From: Pseudomonadota bacterium
GTDB lineage: Bacteria; Pseudomonadota; Alphaproteobacteria; Rhodospirillales; Magnetospirillaceae
Direction: 5' to 3'
NCBI GenBank assembly: GCA_021782815.1
Contig: JAJXUO010000009.1
Coordinates: 17,889 to 81,888, forward strand
Length of the DNA stretch: 64,000 nucleotides
Positions 12,610-24,207 of this stretch are shown piece by piece. A program made the position numbers and the translations under genes. Each line of letters begins with the position of its first letter. Position 1 is the first letter of the stretch. The notes under the pieces are model-generated. The model had not been told where the DNA came from. It did no database searches and was given only the letters and a program-made list of their open reading frames with translations.

Positions 12610-13059
12610 TCACAGAGCCATGATCAGCAGGCTCGACGTCGCCGAGGCGTAGAGTTTACCGGCTTTATCGGTAAGCCGCGCCTCGGTGAAGGCAACGCGC
12701 CGACCGAGGGAAACGATCTTTCCCTCGGCCCGGACCGGACCGGTGTCCTTGGTCATGGCCTTGTGATAGGCCACTTTCAGCTCGACGGTGGAAAAAGTCT
12801 GCTGCGGCGGCATCTTCGACAGCACGGCATAGCCGCAGGCGAAATCCAGCATGGTGGCGGAAAAGCCGCCATGGACGGTGCCCAGGGGATTATAGAGGTG
12901 CACGTCGGGCACGGCTTCCAGCACCACGCGGCCATCCTCGGCCTCGACCAGATGTATATCGAGTGTTTCGCCGATGCCGGGGCGCAGATCCTGCGCCAGC
13001 ATGGCGCGTAATTGCTCGAGGCCCGACAGATGCGGGCCGATATGGTGCAGCAGGGTCAT
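12610..13059 (-). CDS. PaaI-family hotdog-fold thioesterase
   Basis: Internal ATG at 13057-13059 gives 149 aa. Contains NPLGTVHGGFSATMLDFACGYA, typical of PaaI/YbgC-type thioesterases. Confidence 0.85.
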   Translation of the reverse strand: MTLLHHIGPHLSGLEQLRAMLAQDLRPGIGETLDIHLVEAEDGRVVLEAVPDVHLYNPLGTVHGGFSATMLDFACGYAVLSKMPPQQTFSTVELKVAYHKAMTKDTGPVRAEGKIVSLGRRVAFTEARLTDKAGKLYASATSSLLIMAL

Positions 13060-13233
13060 GGATACGCTTTCAAGATATGAAGCCAAGTGCTTGTTGTTCC
13101 TGGAAAGATGGGCGCTCGCCCACGGAACGGCAAGATGCCCGGGAACCCCGAAACAAAATTCACCATAATATACATTATGCGACAATTGGGTGTTTTCAAA
13201 TGGGGCCGGCGGCACGCTCCCAGGCGTCCCTCT

Positions 13234-13290
13234 CGCCGTCGTCTTCGTATCGCCGTCGTCTTCGTATCGCCGTCGTCTTCGTATCGCCGC
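13234..13290. repeat. 17-bp tandem repeat, about 3.4 copies (CGCCGTCGTCTTCGTAT)
   Basis: Perfect copies at 13234-13250, 13251-13267 and 13268-13284, plus a partial fourth. It lies in the divergent intergenic region between the two thioesterase genes. Confidence 0.9.
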
Positions 13291-13418
13291 CGTCAAGCCT
13301 CGCTCATCAGGCTCGGAAAATGCCACCCTTTCAGGGCTCCTTTGCAATTCCGCGGGTGGACAGCGGCGGCAAAGCGGGCCGATCATGCCCTTTTCCTTCT
13401 TGTGCCCCAGGAGGCTTC

Positions 13419-14183
13419 ATGCCGACGGAAACCCGCCTGATCGATCTGGTTTTTCCGGGAGATACCAACCATCACGGCACTCTGTTCGGCGGTGCCGGGC
13501 TGGCGGCCATGGACAAGGCGGCCTATATCGCCGCCGCCCGTCATGCCCAGGTGGATTTCGTCACCGCCTCATGCGATCGCATCGATTTTTCCGCCCCCGC
13601 CCATGTGGGCGAGATCGTCGAGGTGTCGGGCCGGGTGGTGCGGGCCGGACGGCGGTCGCTGACGGTGGAGGTGGATCTGGTGGCCGAGGCCACCATCAGC
13701 GGCGAGCGCCGTTTGTGCACGCGCGGCCGCTTCAACATGGTGGCCGCCGCCCGCGAGGCCAGCGTGCCGCCCCTGCCCGTTCCGGCGCCGGTTTCGCCCG
13801 ATCCGTTACGGGCGGCAACGGGGCCGCTGGCGATGGTGGAACTGGTTTTCCCCGATCAATGCAGCCACCGGCATTCGCTGTTCGGCGGCTACGCCCTGGC
13901 GGCCATGGGCAAGGCCGCCTTCGTGGCCGCCACCCGCCATTGTCGCAAGGCGGTGGTGATGGCGGCCAGCAGCGGCATGGATTTCAAGGCCCCCATCCAT
14001 GTGGGGGAACTGATGGAAATCACCGCCGAGGTGGTGCGCACCGGCACCAGTTCCATGCAGGTGGCGGTGCGCACCTTCGGGGTCAATCTGCAAGACGGCC
14101 GCCGCTGGCCGGTGGCCGAGGGCGGTTTCGTCATGGTGGCCCTGGATGAGAAACACCGCCCCACCCCGGCAATGGCGCCGTGA
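13419..14183 (+). CDS. Acyl-CoA thioesterase with two hotdog domains
   Basis: ATG at 13419 with AGGAGG at 13409-13414. Two repeats of the VFPxDxNHHGxLFGG pattern (VFPGDTNHHGTLFGG and VFPDQCSHRHSLFGG). Confidence 0.85.
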   Translation: MPTETRLIDLVFPGDTNHHGTLFGGAGLAAMDKAAYIAAARHAQVDFVTASCDRIDFSAPAHVGEIVEVSGRVVRAGRRSLTVEVDLVAEATISGERRLCTRGRFNMVAAAREASVPPLPVPAPVSPDPLRAATGPLAMVELVFPDQCSHRHSLFGGYALAAMGKAAFVAATRHCRKAVVMAASSGMDFKAPIHVGELMEITAEVVRTGTSSMQVAVRTFGVNLQDGRRWPVAEGGFVMVALDEKHRPTPAMAP

Positions 14184-14184
14184 T

Positions 14185-14616
14185 TTATTTCGGCGCGCCG
14201 CCCATATCCATGCTCTGCCCATGGGCCAGCGAGGCCAGATAGGCCTCCAGCGCCACCAGTTCGGCGCTGCCGTAAGCCGGGGCCTGCGCGCCCAGGCCGC
14301 CCTGGATGCAATGGCGGATCTGCGCGGCCAGGGTGATCACCCGTCCGGCGTTCTTGTTGTAGCGGGGGAAAATGGCGGCGGCGTTTTCCAGGCTTGGCAA
14401 GGGATGCCCCCCGGCCGCGCCCGGCCCCTTGCCGCCGTTCACATGGCAGCTGTCGCAGGTGCGGCCGGCGCCGCCGAAGGTGCTTTTGGCGAAGAGATTT
14501 TGCCCCTGGGCCACGGTCTCGGCCAGGGGATCGGCGGGCGCGGCGCTGGCGGGAACGGCGGCCGCGAACAGCAGGGCGCCGACGGCGGCGGTCAGGAAAC
14601 GGATGGAGGGCATCAA
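14185..14616 (-). CDS. Periplasmic c-type cytochrome
   Basis: Signal peptide (FLTAAVGALLFAAAVPASA) and a single CxxCH haem site (CDSCH). Confidence 0.8.
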   Translation of the reverse strand: MMPSIRFLTAAVGALLFAAAVPASAAPADPLAETVAQGQNLFAKSTFGGAGRTCDSCHVNGGKGPGAAGGHPLPSLENAAAIFPRYNKNAGRVITLAAQIRHCIQGGLGAQAPAYGSAELVALEAYLASLAHGQSMDMGGAPK

Positions 14617-14706: not shown

Positions 14707-15567
14707 TCAGCCATGTTTCCTGATATGCGCTGGATCCGCCGTTTCGTCCTGATTTTTGGCGTAGCGGCTCAGCGCCGGCACGTCGGCCGCATAAATGCAG
14801 CGGTTATGGGTGCGCACCCCCCGCTCCTTCAGGGTTTGGAAGGCGCGGGACAGGGTTTCCGGCGTCATGCCCAGGCGGGCGGCCAGCACGCTTTTGTCGT
14901 AGGGCAACCGGGTGTCGGCCTCGGTGGCGCCGGGCGGAAACAGTCCGGCCAGAAAGGCCGCCAGACGTTTGGGCGCCGACATCCAGTAGGCGTCTTCCAA
15001 CTCGCCGGTGCGGATTTCCAGCTGCCGGGCCAGGTGGCGGGCCATCGACCGGGCCAGGGCGGGGTCGGCGGTGAAAGCCTCCATCACCGCGGCGCGCGGC
15101 AATTCCAGAACCCGGCTGTCCCAAATGGCCTCGGCACCCATTTTAGCGGGAATTTCCAGGAAAATCTGGGCCGCGCCCACGCAGTCGCCGCCATGGGCGA
15201 TCTGATGCACGGTGAGCGATCCATCATTGCCGGTTTGATAGATCTTCAGGGAGCCTTCCAAAACGATGAACAGACTGGCCGGAGCCAGGCCTTGCGCGAA
15301 CAGGGTTTCCTCGCGGTGGAGCGCCCGCACCACGCCGGATCGCAGCAGGGCGGCGAAATGATCTTCCCCCATGGAACCCAACAGCGATGTGGACCGCAGC
15401 AGGGCCATATCGGCGGGCATCAGCTTCTGGCGTTGACGTTTGAGCTGGGGCGAGCGGCGATAACGCGCCTCGCGCTGGCACAGACCCCGATCTTCGTCGC
15501 TGATGCGCACGCAGACATGGGCCACACTGGGCAGCAGGCAGGATCCGCAGGAGGTTTTCACCGACAT
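14707..15567 (-). CDS. Crp/Fnr family transcriptional regulator with Cys-rich N-terminus
   Basis: Internal ATG at 15565-15567 gives 286 aa. N-terminal C-x2-C-x8-C-x10-C, a cNMP-binding-like beta-roll, and C-terminal HTH (SVLAARLGMTPETLSRAFQTLKERGV). A shorter start at MPADM is possible. Confidence 0.85.
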   Translation of the reverse strand: MSVKTSCGSCLLPSVAHVCVRISDEDRGLCQREARYRRSPQLKRQRQKLMPADMALLRSTSLLGSMGEDHFAALLRSGVVRALHREETLFAQGLAPASLFIVLEGSLKIYQTGNDGSLTVHQIAHGGDCVGAAQIFLEIPAKMGAEAIWDSRVLELPRAAVMEAFTADPALARSMARHLARQLEIRTGELEDAYWMSAPKRLAAFLAGLFPPGATEADTRLPYDKSVLAARLGMTPETLSRAFQTLKERGVRTHNRCIYAADVPALSRYAKNQDETADPAHIRKHG

Positions 15568-16038: not shown

Positions 16039-17211
16039 TCAATATTCCGGTAAACCGGCCTGCCGATGCGGAACGGCGGCCACCCCTTCCACTTCCACCA
16101 GCCATTCCGGGCGGCAGACCGACCCTTTGACGATGACCGCCGGGATGCCGGGGCAACGCTGGCCGAGGGCGCGGCGGATGGCGGGGGCATCGCTGCCGTC
16201 GCGCAGATAGACGATGAAATACATCATGTGGTTCAGCTCGCCGCCGGCGGGTCGCAGGATGGCGGCCACGTTGTCGAGGGCGCGGTCGAGCTGGGCCTCC
16301 ACATCACCCAGGTGCAGCACATCGCCCTTGTGATCGATACTGGCGGTGCCGGAGATGAAGCAGTGCGCGCGATCGGCATAGGCGATGCGGGTGCCCCGCT
16401 CGAAGGTGACGCGGTAGGCCCAGGTGGGGCACATGGCGTCGGTGTCGTTGAGAAAGCTCATCTGTTCGGGGCGCATCCCGACGATGGAATAGGCATCCAT
16501 CAGCACGCCGTCGAAGCGGTTCGGTCCCGCCCCTTCGATCCCGGTACTGGCGATATAATGACTGTCGGCGGTGAGGCCATGCCGGTCGAAGAGGTCGGTA
16601 CGGGCCTGCACCAGGGCGGGATAGAGGCAATCGACATCGCGCACATAAAGCCAGGTGCGCACGCAATGATCGCGCAGGGTGCCGTTTTCCGTTTCCAGGG
16701 CGTTCGTCAGCTGGGAAAACACCTCTTGGGTCTGTTCATAGGCGCCCTGCGGCGCGCTGGCCGAAGGTGTGAGGCCGGTGGTCCACAAATGCCGCAGTCC
16801 GTTGGCTTCCATCACCATGCCGCCTTGCGCCAGGCGACGTTTGCGGCGGGCGCTCCCGCCCGTCACATGACAGGCCAGCAGGCTGATTTTCGAACCGTCC
16901 AGCGGCGCCTGTTCCACCAGCGACACCGCCACCGGATGATCGGGATTTTCATCCAGAAGCCCGCTTCCGGCCAGGGCGGCGGCCTGGTTCTGGGCGTCGC
17001 TGACGAACAGGCGGCGGAACAGGGCGCTCTCCTCGCTCAAACCAAGGTCGGCGCAGGCTTTGCGATACCCCTCCGCGATGGCGCGGCATTGCGCGGCGAA
17101 ACTCCCCTGCCCGTTCACGCTGACGGTCAGAACATGCTCGTCGGTGCCGTTCTGGCCGGTGAAGCTGCGAACGGCGACGGTGGCGGCGGTGGTGGACATG
17201 ACGGCGGTCAT
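16039..17211 (-). CDS. Chorismatase-like protein (FkbO/Hyg5/XanB2 family, RidA/YjgF-type C-terminal domain)
   Basis: ATG at 17209-17211 gives 390 aa. C-terminal CFISGTASIDHKGDVLHLGDVEAQLDRALDNVAAIL...YLRD... matches the RidA-like fold of chorismatases. The family assignment is from memory of the ISGTASI signature, not from a search. Confidence 0.6.
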   Translation of the reverse strand: MTAVMSTTAATVAVRSFTGQNGTDEHVLTVSVNGQGSFAAQCRAIAEGYRKACADLGLSEESALFRRLFVSDAQNQAAALAGSGLLDENPDHPVAVSLVEQAPLDGSKISLLACHVTGGSARRKRRLAQGGMVMEANGLRHLWTTGLTPSASAPQGAYEQTQEVFSQLTNALETENGTLRDHCVRTWLYVRDVDCLYPALVQARTDLFDRHGLTADSHYIASTGIEGAGPNRFDGVLMDAYSIVGMRPEQMSFLNDTDAMCPTWAYRVTFERGTRIAYADRAHCFISGTASIDHKGDVLHLGDVEAQLDRALDNVAAILRPAGGELNHMMYFIVYLRDGSDAPAIRRALGQRCPGIPAVIVKGSVCRPEWLVEVEGVAAVPHRQAGLPEY

Positions 17212-17915
17212 CAGGCGCACCGGACCGGACGGTCGGGAAAACACAACTGGCCGCGGTCGCGCCAGCTGGGATGGACGTAGTTGATCTCCATCAGGCGGCG
17301 GATGCCGGCGATGGGGCGCTTTTCGTACCCATGCCAGGTATTTTCGCCGGGAATGAAGATGGTGGCGGAATTGAACTGGGAGGACGAGCGGCCGACCCAA
17401 CGCTTCTGGTCGTCGTAGATGTCGGTGCCCCAATCGGCGGCATCGGGGCCGGTGCACAGATAGATCACCATGGAGAACAGTTTTTCCGGCACGTCGTGGT
17501 GGGGTTCCAGCCAGGCGCCGTCGATATCCTGGATATATTCGGCGCGCAAATAACTGCCCTCGGCCTCGAACCCGCAGGTTTGCGCCAGCAGCCGGGCGAT
17601 ATCCGACCCCTGCAGCGCCTCGGTCAGGGCGGAGAAGACCGGAAAGCGCGCCTGCATGTCGGGGGTCAGGAAGGTGCGGATGTTGTTATCCACATCGCGC
17701 ACGCCGCGGCAATCCTCGATCAGCAGCGGCATGATGGGCAGGCCGATGATATTGAAGGCCACCGCTTCCGGCAGCATGTCGGTCAGCGACCAGTGCAGAT
17801 AGGGGCTTTCGTCGCGGCGGCAATCCAGCAGGGCCCGGCGGAAATGACGGGCGATGTCGGGCACCGGGGGAAGATCGAACAGGCTCACCGGGGAACACTC
17901 CGAAACGAAGATCAA
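17211..17915 (-). CDS. 2OG-Fe(II) oxygenase-like protein
   Basis: HxD...H facial triad candidates (EPHHDVPEK ... NTWHGYE). The start is uncertain: TTG at 17915, or GTG 27 nt downstream. Its stop overlaps the chorismatase-like start (TGATG). Confidence 0.6.
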   Translation of the reverse strand: MIFVSECSPVSLFDLPPVPDIARHFRRALLDCRRDESPYLHWSLTDMLPEAVAFNIIGLPIMPLLIEDCRGVRDVDNNIRTFLTPDMQARFPVFSALTEALQGSDIARLLAQTCGFEAEGSYLRAEYIQDIDGAWLEPHHDVPEKLFSMVIYLCTGPDAADWGTDIYDDQKRWVGRSSSQFNSATIFIPGENTWHGYEKRPIAGIRRLMEINYVHPSWRDRGQLCFPDRPVRCA

Positions 17916-18604
17916 TTACCGCCGCGGCGGAATTTGCGTGGCATCAGGCCCACCAGATTGCGCAGGCCGGGAATGGCCTTGGCAAAAGCGCTCAAGGAAT
18001 GGCGGGCGTAGGTTTTCCAGACATAGGACCGGCTGTCGACCCAGCAGAACTGCAGGCTCATGCGCTGCCCCTTCTGCGGCAGGAAGCCGTGATAGGAGCG
18101 ATCCGACACCTTGAACATCAGCATTTTGCCGAATTCGGGCGGGAACTCGAAGGCGCTGTCATCGCGGGAATTGCTGCGCAAAACCCGCAACCGGCCGCGT
18201 TCGTAAGGCCATTCCGGGCTGAAGCCCAGGATCACCGTCACGATCTTGTGGCGGCTGTCGGGATGGGCATAGCCCTCGTTGTAATGGCCGCTGGTGTTGC
18301 CCATCATCACGATGCTGGGATGGCAACCGGAAAGATCCACGCCGAACTTTTCCTCCACCAGCGCGCGGAAGCGCGGATTGAGCAGATCGTCCAGCACCGC
18401 CTTGAAACGGGGACCGTAGCGCAGGTTGGGAATACCGTAGGTGCCGCGATGCGGAATGCGCGGCGCATCGGCCAGAACCGCCTCCTTGTGGGAGAGCGGC
18501 ATGGCCTGATCGACGAAGGCGTAATCGTAAGGATCGCGCTGCAAGGGGGCGGCGGCGATGCTTTTTTCATCCAGAACGGCAAAAGGCCGGGCGGCGGCAC
18601 TCAT
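17912..18604 (-). CDS. 2OG-Fe(II) oxygenase superfamily protein
   Basis: ATG at 18602-18604 gives 230 aa. YAHPDSRHK (HxD) and RSYHGF (distal His). Confidence 0.7.
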   Translation of the reverse strand: MSAAARPFAVLDEKSIAAAPLQRDPYDYAFVDQAMPLSHKEAVLADAPRIPHRGTYGIPNLRYGPRFKAVLDDLLNPRFRALVEEKFGVDLSGCHPSIVMMGNTSGHYNEGYAHPDSRHKIVTVILGFSPEWPYERGRLRVLRSNSRDDSAFEFPPEFGKMLMFKVSDRSYHGFLPQKGQRMSLQFCWVDSRSYVWKTYARHSLSAFAKAIPGLRNLVGLMPRKFRRGGN

Positions 18605-18685
18605 GCGGGAACTCCAAGCCAAGGGTGTTACTGGGAACACGGCGTGGAGTGTGGCGATGTTGCTCTGGCAAAACCTTATCCACCG

Positions 18686-21178
18686 TCAAGATTTTGCCGC
18701 GATTTCCTCCAGAACCCGCAAAATCACAACATATTGAAAATTTTCCACCAAAGCGCCCAGATGTCGGCATAACGCCGGGGCATGGGGGCTTATGGCGTGC
18801 AGGGCCTCGTCGATGCGCGGGCGTTCCAGGCTTTCCAGGGCTTCGGCCAGGGCGGCCCGCAAGGGGGCGGGCACCGGGGCGAATTGCGCGGGCGTCAAGG
18901 CGATGGCGGTGTCGGGCGCCGCGTCGGCCGGCGGCGCCGCATAGCGGAATTCCACGCCCAGCTGGCGGGTCAGGCTGTCGTAGATTTCGCGGGAGCGGTA
19001 GGGCTTGCGGATGAAATCGTCCAGGCCCGCGCCCAGCATTTCGTCGCGCTGTTCGCGGAAGGCCGAGGCGGTGACGGCCACGATCTTCACGGCCGCGCCG
19101 CCCGGCCGGGCGCGGATCTGCCGGGCGCTTTCCAGGCCGTCCATCACCGGCATGCGGCGATCCATGAAGATGAGATCGGGATGCCAGCTGTCGAACAGTT
19201 CCACCGCCAGCTTGCCGTTTTCCGCCACCATCAGATCGTAGTTCAATGGGGCCAGCACCTTTTTCATCAGCAGCTGGTTCTCGGTCTGATCCTCGACGAT
19301 GAGAATGCGGCGGCGGGGCTGGCCCTCGGCCAGGCCGATCACGTCGCCCTCGTCCCGCGCCACCATCCGGTGCACGTCGCTTTCGCTGGCCGCCGTCAGC
19401 GGCAGATCCACCCGGAACAAGGTGCCCCGCCCCGGCTGGCTTTCCAGGCTGAGACGTCCCTGCATCAGGTGAACGAACTGCTGGGTGATGCTGAGGCCGA
19501 GACCGGTGCCGCGGCTGTCGCTGGCATCGCCCAATTGTACGAAGGGCTGAAAGATGGCGTTCTGTTCTTCCTGTCCGATGCCGGGGCCGGAATCCTCCAC
19601 CTCGATGATCAGATGGGCGATGGCGTTCTGGTGGGTGCCCAAACGCACCGTGACCCCGCCTTCCTCGGTGAATTTGATGGCGTTGCCGATGAGGTTCACC
19701 AGAATCTGCCGAACGCGCGCCTCGTCGCCCACGATGTAGCGGGGAAATTCCGAGGACTGGTCGTGCAGCAGGGTCAACCCCTTTTCGCTGGCGCGGATCC
19801 GCATCATCTCCATGATGTCGTGCACCAGGCCGCCCAGATCGAAGGGGGCGTGGGCCAGTTGCATCTGGCCGGCCTCGATCTTGGCCATGTCGAGAACGTC
19901 GTTGATGAGTTTCAGCAGATATTCGCCGCTGCGGTTGATGATGGAAAGCGTGCCGCGCTGTTCCTCCGAAAGGCCGCTATCGCGCCGCATCAGGGCGGAA
20001 AAGCCCAGGATGGCGTTCAAGGGTGTGCGCAGCTCGTGGCTCATATTGGCCAGGAACACGCTTTTGGCCCGGTTGGCGGCCTCGGCGGCGTTGCGCGCCA
20101 CCACCAGATCGGCGGTGCGTTGTTCCACCACCTCCTCGAGGTGGGTTTTATAACGCTGCAGCTCGGCTTCCGCCGCCAGCCGCTCGCCGATGTCGCGGGC
20201 CGAAATGGTCAGATAGCGCTGATTGTCCATGTCCATGCCGCGCGCCACCACCTCCACATCCATCAGGCTGCCGTCGGCGCGGCGGTGGCGGCTGCGGTAA
20301 AGCGTGGGCGCGCCCTGGGCGGCCCGTTCCAGCGCGAAGAGTTTTTCCGCCGGATAATCGGGATCCCAATCGGCGGCGTTGAGGGGGGGCGGCGTCTTGG
20401 GGGAATAGCCGAGATTGCGCCAGAAGGAATCGCTGGCCTCCACCAGATCGCCGGAGGCGTTGATGACATGGATGCCGTCCACCGAGGTTTTCAGCAAGGC
20501 CTGGTAGCGTACGGCGTCGCGGGCCATGCCCGCCACCACCGACAGCCCGGCGACGGCGATCAGCACCGCCATCACCACCAGGACGCTGGCGGTGCCGATC
20601 CGGGCCCGGGCATAGGCGGCCAGAGCGGCGGTGACGCTGCTGGCCCCCGCGGTTTTGGCGCGGGCGATGGCGGTGAGAACGGGAGCGCGGGTGGCGGTGA
20701 AGGCCGCGTGCTCCTTGTGGGAAAACAGATCGATGGGCCCCTTGTCCTCGCCGCGCAGCAGCATCTCGGCCAGATCGCGGGTATGGGCCCGCCATTGCGG
20801 CCAGGCCTGGTCGAAGGCGGCCAGATCGGCCTGGGTGGCGCCATCGTCGGCCAGGGGGCGCAGGGCGGCGCGGGCGCTGGCGATGCGTTGGGAAATGCCG
20901 GTCAGGGCGGTCTCCACCTCGCTGATGCCGGCATAATCGTTGATCAGGCCATAGGCCAGCAGACGTCCCTCGGCCAGACGATATTCGTCCAGGGTGTTGT
21001 TCAGGGTGCTCAAGGCCACGGCCAGCGGCAGGCGGCGGTTGCCCAGATGTTCGGCGCGGGTGCTGATGTCGCGCAGGGTCATGCTGGCATAAAGGGCCAG
21101 CCCCACCACCAGCAGCAGCAAACCGGCGAACAGGCCGGTGATCCGGGCTTTGCGGGAAAGGGTGCGCCACCGTTCCAT
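18686..21178 (-). CDS. Hybrid sensor histidine kinase (periplasmic helical sensor, PAS, HisKA, HATPase, REC)
   Basis: N-terminal TM, a roughly 170-aa helical periplasmic domain and a second TM. PAS follows, then H-box SHELRTPLN, G-boxes (DSGPGI, GTGLGLSI) and a receiver (ILIVEDQ...DLIFMDRRMPVMDG...KP). Confidence 0.9.
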   Translation of the reverse strand: MERWRTLSRKARITGLFAGLLLLVVGLALYASMTLRDISTRAEHLGNRRLPLAVALSTLNNTLDEYRLAEGRLLAYGLINDYAGISEVETALTGISQRIASARAALRPLADDGATQADLAAFDQAWPQWRAHTRDLAEMLLRGEDKGPIDLFSHKEHAAFTATRAPVLTAIARAKTAGASSVTAALAAYARARIGTASVLVVMAVLIAVAGLSVVAGMARDAVRYQALLKTSVDGIHVINASGDLVEASDSFWRNLGYSPKTPPPLNAADWDPDYPAEKLFALERAAQGAPTLYRSRHRRADGSLMDVEVVARGMDMDNQRYLTISARDIGERLAAEAELQRYKTHLEEVVEQRTADLVVARNAAEAANRAKSVFLANMSHELRTPLNAILGFSALMRRDSGLSEEQRGTLSIINRSGEYLLKLINDVLDMAKIEAGQMQLAHAPFDLGGLVHDIMEMMRIRASEKGLTLLHDQSSEFPRYIVGDEARVRQILVNLIGNAIKFTEEGGVTVRLGTHQNAIAHLIIEVEDSGPGIGQEEQNAIFQPFVQLGDASDSRGTGLGLSITQQFVHLMQGRLSLESQPGRGTLFRVDLPLTAASESDVHRMVARDEGDVIGLAEGQPRRRILIVEDQTENQLLMKKVLAPLNYDLMVAENGKLAVELFDSWHPDLIFMDRRMPVMDGLESARQIRARPGGAAVKIVAVTASAFREQRDEMLGAGLDDFIRKPYRSREIYDSLTRQLGVEFRYAAPPADAAPDTAIALTPAQFAPVPAPLRAALAEALESLERPRIDEALHAISPHAPALCRHLGALVENFQYVVILRVLEEIAAKS

Positions 21179-21493
21179 GGATTGCCTCCAATCCGGCCTC
21201 TGCTGCCTTTGGCCGCGTTCCCTCCGGAAACGGCGTGGCTATGGGCCCGAAAGTTCGGGCATGGTGCCGCTTTACGTTGTGTTAAAGTAAAGAGGAGTTC
21301 AGTCTGAAGCAGTCTGGCGGTGCTGTCAGTACGAAAAGTGATCTGCGTCAGGGTCATCGGGTGAACGCGCGATCGTTGCCCGCTTGAAGGGGCTTTTCGC
21401 CGCGTTGGCCCATTGAGGGCCCGCGCAAGCGTTTGCGCGAAAGCCAAGCTGGCGGCCGGCCCGCGCCCGGCGCCTGAGCGGACATGTGAAAAC

Positions 21494-21523
21494 CAGGGCA
21501 ATCGGCTTCGCCCGATTGCCCTG
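21494..21523 (+). promoter_or_regulatory. Perfect 12-bp stem-loop in the leader of the binding-protein gene
   Basis: CAGGGCAATCGG (21494-21505) pairs with CCGATTGCCCTG (21512-21523) across a 6-nt loop, 25 nt upstream of the proposed GTG start. Confidence 0.5.
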
Positions 21524-21548
21524 TGATCTGCGCAGACGGGAGGTGGAC

Positions 21549-22667
21549 GTGGGGTGGAATTGGCATCCTCTGATCCGGCCGCGCGCCGGCGGTGCGGCCG
21601 TGATGTGCCTGCTGCTGGTCATGGCGCTTCCGGCCCATGCCGATCATCTGGCCGACGCCCGCGCCGATCTGGCCCGCTATACCAGTCATAAAACCCGGTG
21701 GGACGGGCCCACCGACGGCCCCCGCGCCGCACGGGGCAAAAGCATCGCCATCATCGCCGCCGATCTGCGCAATGGCGGGGTGATGGGCGTGGCCGAGGGT
21801 ATCCGCGAGGCGGCCCACGTCATCGGCTGGCAGGTCATGCTGTTCGACGGGCACGGCAGCGCGCGGGGCCGGAGCATCGCCATGAAACGGGCCCTGGCCA
21901 TGAAGGCCGACGGCATCGTCATCGATGGTTTCGACGTCAACGAGCAGCGCGCCGCCCTGGCGGCGGCGGCCATGGCGCATGTCGCGGTGGTGAGCTGGCA
22001 TGGCGCCCCCGGTGTCGGTCCGGTGCCGGGCACCCCCCTCTTCGCCAACGTCACCACCACGGTGCGCGACGTGGCCCGGGCGGCGGCGGAATGGGTGCTG
22101 GTGGACGGCAAGGGCCATCCCGGCGTGGTGATCTTCACCGACAGCTCCTTTTCCATCGCCATGTCGAAAGCCCGCCGCATGGCCGAGATCATCGACGCCG
22201 ACGGCGGCAAGGTGCTGTCGGTCGAGGATGTGCCCATCGCCGAGACCGCCGAGCGCATACCGGTGCTGACCCATCTGCTGTTGCACATGTACGGCCCGGC
22301 CTGGACCCATTCCCTGGCCATCAACGATCGTTATTTCACCTATACCGGTCCGGCCCTGGCCGCCGAGGGCGTGGCCGGAAACGCCCCTCCCATCGCCGTG
22401 GCGGCGGGCGACGGCTCGCCCCAGGCCTATCAACGGGTGCGCGACGGCCGCTATCAGGCGGTGACGGTGGCCGAGCCCCTGTGCCTGCAGGGCTGGCAAT
22501 TGGTGGACGAGCTCAACCGCGCCTTCGCCGGACGGCCCTGGTCGGGCTATGTGGCCCCGCTGCAGGTGGTGACCCGGGACAATATCGACCGCGACGGCGG
22601 GCGCGATAATCATTTCGATCCCGACAACCAGTACCGCGCCCATTACCGGGCCATTTGGGGACGTTGA
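21549..22667 (+). CDS. Periplasmic binding protein (sugar-binding / LacI-type PBP fold)
   Basis: GTG at 21549 with GGGAGG 5 nt upstream. Signal peptide ...AAVMCLLLVMALPAHA. The two-lobe PBP pattern is present (IAIIAADLRNGGV..., ADGIVIDGFD, VVIFTDSS). The start is uncertain, since the ORF opens at 21486. Confidence 0.8.
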   Translation: MGWNWHPLIRPRAGGAAVMCLLLVMALPAHADHLADARADLARYTSHKTRWDGPTDGPRAARGKSIAIIAADLRNGGVMGVAEGIREAAHVIGWQVMLFDGHGSARGRSIAMKRALAMKADGIVIDGFDVNEQRAALAAAAMAHVAVVSWHGAPGVGPVPGTPLFANVTTTVRDVARAAAEWVLVDGKGHPGVVIFTDSSFSIAMSKARRMAEIIDADGGKVLSVEDVPIAETAERIPVLTHLLLHMYGPAWTHSLAINDRYFTYTGPALAAEGVAGNAPPIAVAAGDGSPQAYQRVRDGRYQAVTVAEPLCLQGWQLVDELNRAFAGRPWSGYVAPLQVVTRDNIDRDGGRDNHFDPDNQYRAHYRAIWGR

Positions 22668-22689
22668 CCGGGACCGCGCGACATGCGGG

Positions 22690-24207
22690 ATGCATTTTCA
22701 GGATCAACATCGTTCGGGTGACGCCATGACCTCTTCCGCCACGTCCTCATTCTGCGGCAACATCCTGATCGTCGACGACCTGCCGGCCAATTTACAGCTG
22801 CTCTCCGATATTCTGCTGCGCGAGGGCTATGCCGTGCGGGCCGCGCCCGATGGCCGCATGGCCCTGAAGGCGGTGGCGCAGCGCCTGCCCGATCTGATCC
22901 TGCTGGATGTGAAGATGCCGGAAATGGACGGGCTGGAGGTCTGCCGCCTGCTGAAGGAGAATCCGGCCAGCCGTCATGTGCCGGTGATCTTTCTCAGCGC
23001 CTATCAGGAAACCGCCGACAAGCTGGCCGGTTTCGCGGCCGGCGGCGTCGATTACATCGGCAAGCCCTTCATCGCCGAGGAGGTGCTGGCCCGCGTGCGC
23101 ACCCATGTGTCGCTCTATGATTTGCAGGTCCGTCTGGAAGAGCGGGTCATGCAGCGCACCCGGGCCTTGCGTATGCTGTCGGCGGGGAATCTGGCGTTGG
23201 CACAGGGACGGACCGAGCCGGACCTGCTGGAGGCCATGGCCCGCGTCATCGTCGAGCAGGGGCAATATCCCGCCGTCCGTCTGCGCTTGATCAGCGACGA
23301 AGGGGTGACCTTGCGGGCGGCCGAGGCCGGCGACAGAAGCGTGCTGGCCGTGGCCCCGCTCGACGGCTTCGGCCGCCCGCCCGCCCTGCGCGGCCTGCAC
23401 GAACTGGCTCTGGACGGCGAAAGCCGGGCCCGCTTCGCCCGTTTCGGCATTCACGCCCTGCTCACCCTGCATCTCGGCGGCGACACCCTGCGCGGCGCCA
23501 TCGGCGTGCTGACGGTTTTTTGCGCCAAACCGTTCGCCGATATCGCCGAGGAGGAACGCGCCCTGCTGGTGGAACTGGCGGGCAATCTCAGCTATGGCCT
23601 GACCGCCCTGGCCGCGCGCCGCAAGCTGGAGCAGATGTTTGAACAGACCATTCAGGCCATCGCCGCCACGGTGGAGAAGCGTGATCCCTACACCGCCGGT
23701 CATCAGCGCCGGGTGGCGGGCATCGCCACGGCCATCGCCCGCCAGATCGGCATGGACGAGCACCAGATCAAGGGCGTCTATCTGGCCAGCATCATCCACG
23801 ACATCGGCAAAATCGGCGTGCCGGTGGAAATCCTGACCCGCTCGGGCAAGCTCAGCAGCCACGAAATGGGATTGATCCAGGAACATCCCCGCATCGGTCA
23901 CGATGTGGTCAAGGAGATCGAATTTCCCTGGCCGGTGCCGGCGATCATCCTGCAGCACCATGAACGCATCGACGGCTCGGGCTATCCCTTCGGTCTCAAG
24001 GACAACGAGATCGTGCCCGAGGCCAAGATCGTGGCGGTGGCCGACGTGCTCGACGCCATCTCCTCGCACCGGCCCTACCGCCCGGCCCTGGGGATGGATG
24101 TGGCCATCCAGGAACTGCTGACGCACAAGGGCGCCCTTTATGATCCCGGTGTCGTCGAGGCCTGCATCGCCGTGGTGAACGAGGGCGGCGTCGCGGCGGG
24201 GCCGTAA
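22690..24207 (+). CDS. Response regulator with GAF-like and HD-GYP domains (c-di-GMP phosphodiesterase type)
   Basis: REC (ILIVDDLPANL...DLILLDVKMPEMDG...KPF), a central GAF-like segment, then HDIGKIGVP and HHERIDGSGYPFGL. An alternative start is ATG 22726. Confidence 0.9.
   Translation: MHFQDQHRSGDAMTSSATSSFCGNILIVDDLPANLQLLSDILLREGYAVRAAPDGRMALKAVAQRLPDLILLDVKMPEMDGLEVCRLLKENPASRHVPVIFLSAYQETADKLAGFAAGGVDYIGKPFIAEEVLARVRTHVSLYDLQVRLEERVMQRTRALRMLSAGNLALAQGRTEPDLLEAMARVIVEQGQYPAVRLRLISDEGVTLRAAEAGDRSVLAVAPLDGFGRPPALRGLHELALDGESRARFARFGIHALLTLHLGGDTLRGAIGVLTVFCAKPFADIAEEERALLVELAGNLSYGLTALAARRKLEQMFEQTIQAIAATVEKRDPYTAGHQRRVAGIATAIARQIGMDEHQIKGVYLASIIHDIGKIGVPVEILTRSGKLSSHEMGLIQEHPRIGHDVVKEIEFPWPVPAIILQHHERIDGSGYPFGLKDNEIVPEAKIVAVADVLDAISSHRPYRPALGMDVAIQELLTHKGALYDPGVVEACIAVVNEGGVAAGP

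What the first reader, a model, noticed from the sequence alone, without database searches (positions are those of the whole stretch)
16039..18604. Tightly coupled three-gene operon: 2OG-oxygenase, 2OG-oxygenase-like, chorismatase-like
Seen:
- Three minus-strand genes with overlapping stop/start signals (17912-17915 and TGATG at 17209-17213).
- The first two have HxD...H facial-triad candidates.
- The third ends in a RidA/YjgF-like domain with ISGTASI...GD...Q, which I associate with FkbO/Hyg5/XanB2 chorismatases.

Established knowledge: chorismatases make 3- or 4-hydroxybenzoate or dihydroxy-cyclohexadiene carboxylates. These feed ubiquinone, pigments or polyketide starter units.

Inference: pairing with two Fe/2OG oxygenases, without any PKS, NRPS or ubi genes nearby, suggests a small, undescribed route to a hydroxylated benzoate-type metabolite or signal. 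The operon lies directly downstream of a hybrid sensor kinase on the same strand (80-nt gap).
Basis: partly seen in the sequence, partly recalled or inferred. Interest (0 to 1): 0.6.

Follow-up and report, generated by a model that had tools for sequence, protein, structure and literature searches.

The report
Chorismatase-like enzyme with two oxygenases
Three adjacent genes (a chorismatase-fold enzyme and two iron/2-oxoglutarate oxygenases) belong to a widespread, unnamed bacterial gene set that most carriers put behind a low-oxygen promoter site and that probably makes an oxygenated aromatic acid from chorismate, although its product is unknown.

Summary
The three minus-strand genes are real. 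A (17912-18604) and B (17211-17888) are distantly related PolD/PasI-like Fe(II)/2OG oxygenases with invariant HxD...H triads. C (16039-17211) has the full three-domain chorismatase fold of FkbO and Hyg5, including the catalytic Glu, but it scores far below the FkbO/Hyg5 family cut-off and lacks the RidA catalytic Arg.

The trio is strongly co-conserved. About 68 of 80 loci from alpha-, beta- and gamma-proteobacteria and Omnitrophota carry A, B and C together, as C-A-B or A-B-C, and no other neighbour is conserved.

In 37 of 59 loci an FNR/FixK box (one mismatch or none) lies upstream, against about 3% of control windows. Among 301 alphaproteobacteria, C co-occurs with UbiU of the oxygen-independent ubiquinone pathway (6 of 7 against 13%, p=4e-5).

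This window has no such box. The cassette sits 81 nt behind a PAS hybrid kinase.

A direct ubiquinone role gets no complementarity support. This genome already has both hydroxylase sets, 32 of 41 relatives lack C, and Omnitrophota carriers lack UbiA and UbiU.

The function is unproven. The most likely chemistry is chorismate to a (dihydro)hydroxybenzoate, followed by two O2-dependent oxidations. I found no paper describing the cassette.

The parts
18686..21178 (-). Hybrid sensor kinase (PAS, HisKA, HATPase_c, REC), directly upstream. It may be co-transcribed with the cassette. The linkage is conserved only within this genus.
   Evidence: Pfam. Present next to A-B-C only in G001 (87% identity). 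No terminator-like site before A.
18605..18685 (-). 81-nt spacer between the kinase and gene A. It has no FNR/FixK box, no sigma-70-like promoter match and no terminator-like hairpin.
17912..18604 (-). Gene A: a 230-aa Fe(II)/2-oxoglutarate oxygenase of PolD/PasI type. Motifs: H114-x-D116...H172 and R181-x-S183.
   Evidence: PF13640, 33.8 bits. PDB 9blq (PolD) E=6e-12 and 9ei6 (PasI). Conserved residues.
17898..17901 (-). GGAG ribosome-binding site, 9 nt before the GTG start of B.
   Evidence: Read from the sequence.
17211..17888 (-). Gene B: a 225-aa divergent Fe(II)/2-oxoglutarate oxygenase, a distant homologue of A. Motifs: H130-x-D132...H186 and R197/R198.
   Evidence: PF13640, only 18.9 bits. 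AF2 model pLDDT 91.5. Foldseek top hits PolD, PasI, Tpa1, OGFOD1 and PHD2. hhalign A against B: probability 90.7%, E=1.2e-6. Invariant residues.
16039..17211 (-). Gene C: a 390-aa chorismatase-fold protein made of three RidA-like domains. E373 is the counterpart of the catalytic Glu of Hyg5 (E334) and FkbO (E338). Its ATG overlaps B's TGA (TGATG, 17209-17213).
   Evidence: PF01042 at the C-terminus and TIGR04444 at 38.5 bits against a cut-off of 325. AF2 pLDDT 88, pTM 0.90. Foldseek FkbO 4bps E=5e-18 and Hyg5 5ag3/5a3k over about 345 columns. Alignments.
14707..15420 (-). Crp/FNR-family regulator (cNMP_binding plus HTH_Crp_2) downstream on the same strand. This is context only and is conserved only in the same genus.
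   Evidence: Pfam..

Best explanation
The three genes encode a self-contained short pathway that branches from chorismate.

1. C is a member of a new, large subfamily of the chorismatase fold. It binds chorismate or a very close enolpyruvyl analogue. Its conserved Glu373 protonates the enolpyruvyl methylene, which releases pyruvate and a hydroxybenzoate or dihydroxy-cyclohexadiene carboxylate.
2. A and B are two anciently diverged PolD/PasI-like Fe(II)/2OG oxygenases, always encoded in the order A then B. Each carries out one O2-dependent oxidation of that acid. The end product would be a di- or tri-oxygenated benzoate or quinol-type small molecule.

In most carriers the cassette is driven from an FNR/FixK-box promoter, so it is switched on at low oxygen. 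It occurs in bacteria that also have the oxygen-independent ubiquinone system UbiTUV. It therefore most likely serves micro-oxic quinone or redox metabolism.

In this genus the FNR box is absent and the cassette has been placed behind a PAS hybrid kinase.

Shown here: the folds, the conserved catalytic residues, the co-conservation, the FNR-box enrichment and the co-occurrence with UbiU. Inferred: the substrate, the products, the order of the reactions and the physiological role.
For: Fold and residues of C:
- Foldseek matches full-length FkbO and Hyg5 (E about 1e-17, TM 0.6-0.72). All other hits cover a single RidA domain.
- C shares with FkbO the motifs RTW, Y..R, A(S/A)TGI.GA, F.R.T, IS.TA.I and (C/A)R..LLVE.EG, and these are invariant across the family.
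- E373 aligns with Hyg5 Glu334, which PMC7170507 reports as essential.
- G288 and C366 align with Hyg5 G240 and C327 by my mapping. The counterparts of these two in Nat-hyg5 (Gly-231, Cys-318) are named as CH-II marker residues in PMC7170507.

A and B:
- Both keep the metal triad and a 2OG-binding Arg.
- Their nearest solved relatives, PolD and PasI, are small-molecule enzymes.

Co-conservation:
- A, B and C are adjacent in about 68 of 80 loci. Of the 62 same-strand trios whose order was scored, 48 are C-A-B and 14 are A-B-C, and A-B gaps are often -4 or -1.
- No other family is present in more than 6 of 80 loci.
- In five genomes where C stands alone in the locus, an A orthologue lies elsewhere in the genome.

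Regulation and co-occurrence:
- An FNR box lies within 250 nt upstream in 17 of 59 loci (perfect) and 20 of 59 (one mismatch). Control windows give 0.3% and 2.4%.
- UbiU co-occurs with C in 6 of 7 C-positive genomes against 37 of 294 C-negative genomes. Fisher p=3.9e-5; at genus level 5 of 5, p=5.9e-5.
- C lies directly after ubiT-ubiU-ubiV in L021.

The window's C keeps 84 of 89 highly conserved positions.
Against: - No substrate or product is known for any member, and no paper on the cassette was found.
- C shares only 18-19% identity with the characterised chorismatases and scores far below the family cut-off. A different enolpyruvyl or related substrate cannot be excluded.
- Fe/2OG enzymes rarely hydroxylate aromatic rings.
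- A is dispensable in some lineages. G002 (same genus) and G027 have only B-C and no A anywhere in the genome.
- C occurs without A in Planctomycetota and Elusimicrobia.
- Extra paralogues in this genome (two of B, one of A) lie away from any C-like gene.
- In this window there is no FNR box, so low-oxygen control is not shown for this copy.
- The association with UbiU may reflect a shared low-oxygen lifestyle and not a shared pathway.
Confidence: 0.45

Rival explanations
1. Ubiquinone ring supply. C replaces UbiC or XanB2 as the 4-HB (or 3-HB) synthase. A and B pre-install two of the three ring hydroxyls on the soluble benzoate before prenylation. This would be a third, micro-oxic route beside the flavin/Coq7 hydroxylases and UbiUV.
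For: - C lies directly after ubiTUV in L021, and U32 (UbiU/V-like) genes recur next to the cassette in 5-6 loci.
- C co-occurs with UbiU class-wide, p=4e-5.
- None of 41 relatives has UbiC or a true FkbO/Hyg5-family chorismatase. The source of 4-HB in such alphaproteobacteria is listed as unknown in PMC5714133 and PMC12423496.
- Two oxygenases would match two hydroxylations.
Against: - This genome already has a flavin Ubi hydroxylase, Coq7 and UbiTUV. Eight of nine cassette-bearing relatives have both oxygen-dependent enzymes, so no enzymatic gap needs filling.
- 32 of 41 relatives and 98% of sampled alphaproteobacteria lack C and mostly also lack UbiC.
- Omnitrophota genomes with a full C-A-B set have no UbiU and no UbiA above the cut-off.
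Confidence: 0.17
2. A and B are protein prolyl or lysyl hydroxylases, acting on a ribosomal protein or on EF-Tu as oxygen sensors. C has an unrelated or accessory role.
For: - B's model also matches Tpa1, OGFOD1, PHD2 and the Pseudomonas EF-Tu prolyl hydroxylase.
- The cassette belongs to an oxygen-responsive regulon in most carriers.
- Paralogues of both A and B elsewhere in this genome lie away from any C-like gene.
Against: - The best sequence and fold matches are the small-molecule enzymes PolD and PasI.
- Tight linkage, often with overlapping reading frames, to a chorismatase-fold enzyme across phyla is hard to explain for a protein hydroxylase.
Confidence: 0.08
3. C is a RidA-type deaminase or hydrolase fusion. 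It would quench a reactive enamine or imine made when A and B oxidise an amino compound, and chorismate would not be involved.
For: - PF01042 is the only Pfam hit, and the sources name homologues 'Rid family hydrolase', 'RutC' or 'enamine deaminase RidA'.
- By sequence alone, the scores against single-domain RidA proteins are similar to those against chorismatases.
Against: - The residue at the position of the RidA catalytic Arg (E. coli R105, recalled from memory) is Val or a gap in C. The family consensus there is P..IV.GAVCRP.
- Only chorismatases match all three domains.
- Motifs outside the RidA-like C-terminal domain are shared with FkbO.
Confidence: 0.08

Closest known systems
Hyg5 / CH-II chorismatases (3-hydroxybenzoate synthases; PDB 5ag3, 5a3k) and FkbO / CH-I (PDB 4bps)
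   Same: - Same three-domain pseudo-trimeric RidA-like fold over about 345 aligned columns.
- The catalytic Glu is conserved (C E373 = Hyg5 E334 = FkbO E338).
- The RTW, Y..R, ATGI.GA, F.R.T and SGTAS motifs are shared.
- Gly288 and Cys366 match Hyg5 G240 and C327, where FkbO has Ala.
   Different: - Only 18-19% identity, and TIGR04444 scores 38.5 bits against a cut-off of 325.
- C is about 45 residues longer.
- It is not found in PKS, NRPS or pigment clusters. It is paired with two Fe/2OG oxygenases and sits behind FNR boxes.
- The third CH-II marker residue could not be mapped.
- The product is unknown.
XanB2 (CH-III bifunctional 3-HBA/4-HBA synthase of Xanthomonas, which feeds ubiquinone and xanthomonadin)
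   Same: - A chorismatase-type enzyme in proteobacteria, outside polyketide clusters.
- It has a documented link to ubiquinone precursor supply (Zhou et al. 2013, as cited in PMC5714133 and PMC12423496).
- C is sometimes adjacent to ubiTUV.
   Different: - No XanB2 sequence was available for a direct comparison.
- C does not reach the FkbO/Hyg5-family model cut-off. From memory, that model also names XanB2 proteins.
- XanB2 is not known to work with Fe/2OG oxygenases.
PolD (Streptomyces cacaoi, PDB 9blq) and PasI (Photorhabdus asymbiotica, PDB 9ei6/9ei7), Fe/2OG oxygenases of nucleoside-antibiotic pathways
   Same: - They are the closest solved relatives of A by sequence (E=6e-12) and of B by fold.
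- They share the H-x-D-x3-K...H motif and a similar size of about 220 aa.
- They act on small molecules.
   Different: - Only 13-16% identity to B.
- According to the PDB entry title, PasI binds an octosyl-acid phosphate nucleoside. No nucleoside-antibiotic genes accompany A and B.
- The substrate-binding residues were not compared.
UbiC chorismate pyruvate-lyase
   Same: It catalyses the same type of overall reaction that is proposed for C: chorismate to hydroxybenzoate plus pyruvate.
   Different: - The fold is unrelated (PF04345).
- It is absent from this genome and from all 40 relatives.

Membership tests
Chorismatase fold (FkbO/Hyg5/XanB2 superfamily) | Single chain of three RidA/YjgF-like domains forming a pseudo-trimer | tested here: met
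   The AF2 model (pLDDT 88) matches 4bps, 5ag3 and 5a3k over 341-354 columns (E 5e-18 to 9e-16, TM 0.59-0.72). All other hits cover one domain.
Chorismatase fold (FkbO/Hyg5/XanB2 superfamily) | Catalytic acid Glu in the C-terminal VE(I/V)EG motif (Hyg5 E334, FkbO E338) | tested here: met
   E373 aligns with it and is invariant in the 26-sequence alignment A1. RidA proteins also keep a Glu here, so this feature alone does not discriminate.
FkbO/Hyg5 family chorismatase (NCBIfam TIGR04444) | Score at or above the curated cut-off of 325 bits | tested here: not met
   38.5 bits for C. Orthologues in relatives score 35-58 bits.
CH-II (Hyg5-type 3-HBA synthase) | Subfamily marker residues Gly/Gly/Cys (Nat-hyg5 G164, G231, C318) | tested here: inconclusive
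   G288 and C366 match the second and third markers. The first could not be mapped, because Hyg5 aligns only from residue 234 onward.
Chorismatase (enzymatic activity) | Converts chorismate to pyruvate plus a (dihydro)hydroxybenzoate | not testable with these tools
   This needs an enzyme assay.
RidA imine/enamine deaminase (TIGR00004 / PF01042) | Catalytic Arg (E. coli RidA R105, recalled from memory) and a homotrimer of about 125-aa subunits | tested here: not met
   The Arg position is Val or a gap. TIGR00004 scores 32 bits against a cut-off of 106. The protein is a 390-aa three-domain chain.
Fe(II)/2-oxoglutarate oxygenase (P4H-like, PF13640) | HxD/E...H metal triad and a basic residue that binds the 2OG C5 carboxylate, on a double-stranded beta-helix | tested here: met
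   A: 33.8 bits (cut-off 27), H114/D116/H172 and R181-x-S183. B: 18.9 bits (below the cut-off), but H130/D132/H186 and R197/R198 are invariant and the fold matches PolD, PasI, Tpa1 and PHD2.
PolD/PasI-type oxygenases | Acts on an octosyl-acid phosphate nucleoside within a nucleoside-antibiotic cluster | tested here: not met
   No such cluster genes appeared among the conserved neighbours in 80 loci. Similarity is at family level only.
FNR/FixK low-oxygen regulon | TTGAT-N4-ATCAA box upstream of the first gene | tested here: not met
   For this window there is no box with two mismatches or fewer in 18590-19000, and none upstream of the kinase. The feature is met in 37 of 59 other loci.
Ubiquinone biosynthesis genes | Presence tracks ubiquinone producers and fills a missing step | tested here: inconclusive
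   C co-occurs with UbiU (p=4e-5). However, no enzymatic gap exists in this genome, and Omnitrophota carriers lack UbiA and UbiU.

The most novel reading that the evidence does not exclude
The cassette is a third, micro-oxic way of building the oxygenated ubiquinone ring. C makes a soluble hydroxybenzoate from chorismate without O2. A and B, induced by FNR/FixK, use traces of O2 to add two hydroxyls before prenylation, giving for example a 2,3,4-trihydroxybenzoate-type precursor. This would bypass the membrane hydroxylases in the oxygen range where neither the flavin/Coq7 enzymes nor the O2-sensitive UbiUV system works well.
Probability: 0.12. Interest if true: 0.85.

Novelty: new variant of a known kind. 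Interest (0 to 1): 0.58.

Why it matters
Chorismatases are known mainly from antibiotic and pigment clusters and fall into four described subfamilies. This cassette defines a further, large subfamily: 541 clusters at 50% identity with E at or below 1e-30. It is spread across Proteobacteria and beyond, is fixed next to two dedicated oxygenases, and usually sits behind a low-oxygen promoter.

Working out its product would add a new branch to chorismate metabolism. It could also bear on two open questions:
- Where many alphaproteobacteria get their ubiquinone ring precursor.
- How respiratory quinone or redox chemistry is maintained in the micro-oxic range.

The proteins are currently annotated only as 'Rid family hydrolase', 'hypothetical protein' or '2OG-Fe(II) oxygenase', so the annotation is misleading.

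Tried and rejected
- **A-B fusion.** An apparent 464-aa A-B fusion ORF in L082 was an artefact of my script. The translation contains a stop between A and B.
- **FNR box for this copy.** None lies upstream of A or of the kinase. The one-mismatch match at 17281-17294 is inside B. It is explained by the codons of B's invariant L-M-E-I-N motif, which give a box with one mismatch or none in 38 of 51 homologues.
- **Missing-hydroxylase idea.** Rejected for this clade. One flavin Ubi hydroxylase and Coq7 are present in G000 and in 8 of 9 cassette-bearing relatives.
- **C as the general 4-HB synthase of alphaproteobacteria.** Rejected, because C is present in only 7 of 301 sampled genomes and 9 of 41 relatives.
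- **UbiU association within the order.** Not informative, because UbiU is present in 34 of 41 genomes (p=0.15).
- **Kinase as part of the system.** Not conserved outside the genus.
- **'C alone' as a separate clade.** Rejected. Lone copies are scattered through the tree, and in five genomes with a lone C an A orthologue lies elsewhere.
- **Literature.** Searches for chorismatase plus 2-oxoglutarate, for the PDB codes 9BLQ/9EI6/9EI7, and for PolD/PasI gave nothing useful.
Full report
**Anatomy**

Three minus-strand ORFs fill 16039-18604.
- Gene A (17912-18604, 230 aa) starts 81 nt after the stop of an 830-aa hybrid kinase. No terminator-like or promoter-like site lies between them.
- Gene B most likely starts at the GTG at 17888, 9 nt after a GGAG. 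The TTG that overlaps A's stop is the less likely start. With the GTG start, A and B are 23 nt apart.
- Gene C is 390 aa (16039-17211).

**Families**

A passes PF13640 (33.8 bits). B does not (18.9 bits). C hits only PF01042 in its last 100 residues. In NCBIfam, C scores 38.5 bits on TIGR04444, the FkbO/Hyg5 chorismatase model, against a cut-off of 325.

By sequence against the PDB, A finds 9blq and 9ei6. C finds FkbO (4bps), Hyg5 (5ag3, 5a3k) and single-domain RidA proteins at similar weak scores.

Structure prediction settles the question of fold.
- The model of C (pLDDT 88, pTM 0.90) matches FkbO and Hyg5 over about 345 columns (E 5e-18 to 9e-16, TM 0.59-0.72). Every other hit covers one RidA domain only.
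- The model of B (pLDDT 91.5) matches PolD (9blq), PasI (9ei6/9ei7), Tpa1, OGFOD1 and PHD2.
- Profile comparison shows that A and B are distant homologues (hhalign probability 90.7%, 18% identity). BLASTP finds no similarity between them.

**Catalytic residues**

Across 69 A and 65 B homologues the HxD...H triad is essentially invariant, and so is a downstream Arg (R-x-S in A, RR in B).

In C:
- E373 aligns with Hyg5 Glu334 and FkbO Glu338. PMC7170507 describes Glu334 of Hyg5 as the essential acid that protonates the enolpyruvyl methylene.
- G288 and C366 align with Hyg5 G240 and C327, where FkbO has Ala.
- Further motifs (RTW, Y..R, ATGI.GA, F.R.T) are shared with FkbO and are invariant in the family.
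- The position of the RidA catalytic Arg (identity recalled from memory) holds Val or a gap.
- The window's C sits on a long branch with its genus-mate but keeps 84 of 89 highly conserved positions.

**Co-conservation**

Within the window's own family and order, full-length C orthologues occur in 9 of 41 genomes. A and/or B are always adjacent: A-B-C, C-A-B, or B-C only.

A scan of species-representative genomes returned 80 loci.
- About 68 of them carry A, B and C together on one strand.
- Of the 62 same-strand trios whose order was scored, 48 are C-A-B and 14 are A-B-C.
- A always comes immediately before B, often with -4 or -1 overlaps.
- The carriers include alpha-, beta- and gamma-proteobacteria, a bin labelled Terriglobia, and Omnitrophota.
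- The C tree mixes these classes, which indicates horizontal transfer.

No other gene family is present in more than 6 of 80 loci. The minor recurrent neighbours are HemN-like, U32 (UbiU/V-like) and Crp/FNR-like proteins, identified by sequence motifs and by similarity to the Pfam-annotated U32 genes of L021.

Where C stands alone in a proteobacterial locus, an A orthologue at 64-79% identity lies elsewhere in the genome (5 genomes). Planctomycetota and Elusimicrobia have C without A. G002 and G027 have B-C without A.

The C family comprises 541 clusters at 50% identity with E at or below 1e-30. Homologues of B and C are named only 'hypothetical', '2OG-Fe(II) oxygenase', 'Rid family hydrolase' or similar.

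**Regulation**

In 59 loci with enough upstream sequence, a perfect TTGAT-N4-ATCAA box lies within 250 nt of the first cassette gene in 17 loci, and a one-mismatch box in 20. In 1190 control windows from the same loci the rates are 0.3% and 2.4%.

The window has no such box, and most cassettes in its own family also lack one. In this genus the cassette follows a PAS-HisKA-HATPase-REC kinase, and a Crp/FNR-type regulator lies downstream.

**Link to ubiquinone**

In L021, C follows ubiT-ubiU-ubiV directly.

In an even sample of 301 alphaproteobacteria, C occurs in 7 genomes and UbiU in 43. Six of the 7 C-positive genomes have UbiU (Fisher p=3.9e-5; 5 of 5 genera, p=5.9e-5).

None of 41 relatives has UbiC or a protein above the TIGR04444 cut-off. 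The source of 4-HB in such bacteria is listed as unknown in PMC5714133 and PMC12423496.

Three tests count against a direct role.
- This genome has UbiA, one flavin Ubi hydroxylase, Coq7 and UbiTUV, so no step is missing. Eight of nine cassette-bearing relatives have both oxygen-dependent enzymes.
- 32 of 41 relatives lack C.
- Two Omnitrophota genomes with the full cassette have neither UbiU nor a UbiA above the cut-off.

**Conclusion**

The chemistry remains inferred.

The most likely mechanism has two stages. First, a chorismatase-type cleavage of chorismate by C. Second, two O2-dependent oxidations by A and B, which would give an oxygenated benzoate or quinol.

In most lineages the cassette is under FNR/FixK control, and it is found in bacteria equipped for low-oxygen quinone biosynthesis. 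This copy has been rewired behind a sensor kinase. Whether the product feeds ubiquinone, acts as a redox shuttle or chelator, or is a signal cannot be decided with these tools.

No publication on the cassette was found.

Noticed in passing
window 17281-17294: An FNR-like box with one mismatch (TTGATCTCCATCAG) lies inside gene B, about 70 nt before C's start. It is the reverse complement of the codons for B's invariant L-M-E-I-N motif. The same motif gives a box with one mismatch or none in 38 of 51 homologues. It is probably a coding by-product, but it could serve as an internal promoter site in A-B-C arrangements.
   Followed up: partly
own genome, contigs C45:37500-38171, C76:9995-10648 and C101:17576-18295 (outside the window): There are two further B paralogues (43-44% identity) and one A paralogue (27%). 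They lie next to unrelated genes (a small heat-shock protein and a kinase; phosphoglucomutase and UDP-glucose dehydrogenase; a glycosyltransferase-like gene). No C-like gene is nearby.
   Followed up: partly
window 13400-14183 (+) and 12610-13386 (-): A double-hotdog 4HBT-superfamily acyl-CoA thioesterase (PF03061, two domains) and a PaaI-like thioesterase are transcribed divergently about 2 kb downstream of C. The double-hotdog gene is conserved next to the cassette only in the same genus. No link to the cassette was shown.
   Followed up: no
window 14185-14616 (-): A small SoxA/TsdA-type cytochrome c (PF21342) lies next to the Crp/FNR-type regulator.
   Followed up: no
window 21486-24207 (+): A periplasmic binding protein (Peripla_BP_4) and a REC-HD-GYP protein are transcribed divergently from the hybrid kinase. 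The arrangement is conserved in the same genus.
   Followed up: no
L063 (a MAG labelled Terriglobia) = G340: This bin carries the cassette, a UbiU at 71% identity to the proteobacterial query, and a proteobacterial-type UbiA above the cut-off. Either the bin is mislabelled or these contigs are proteobacterial.
   Followed up: partly
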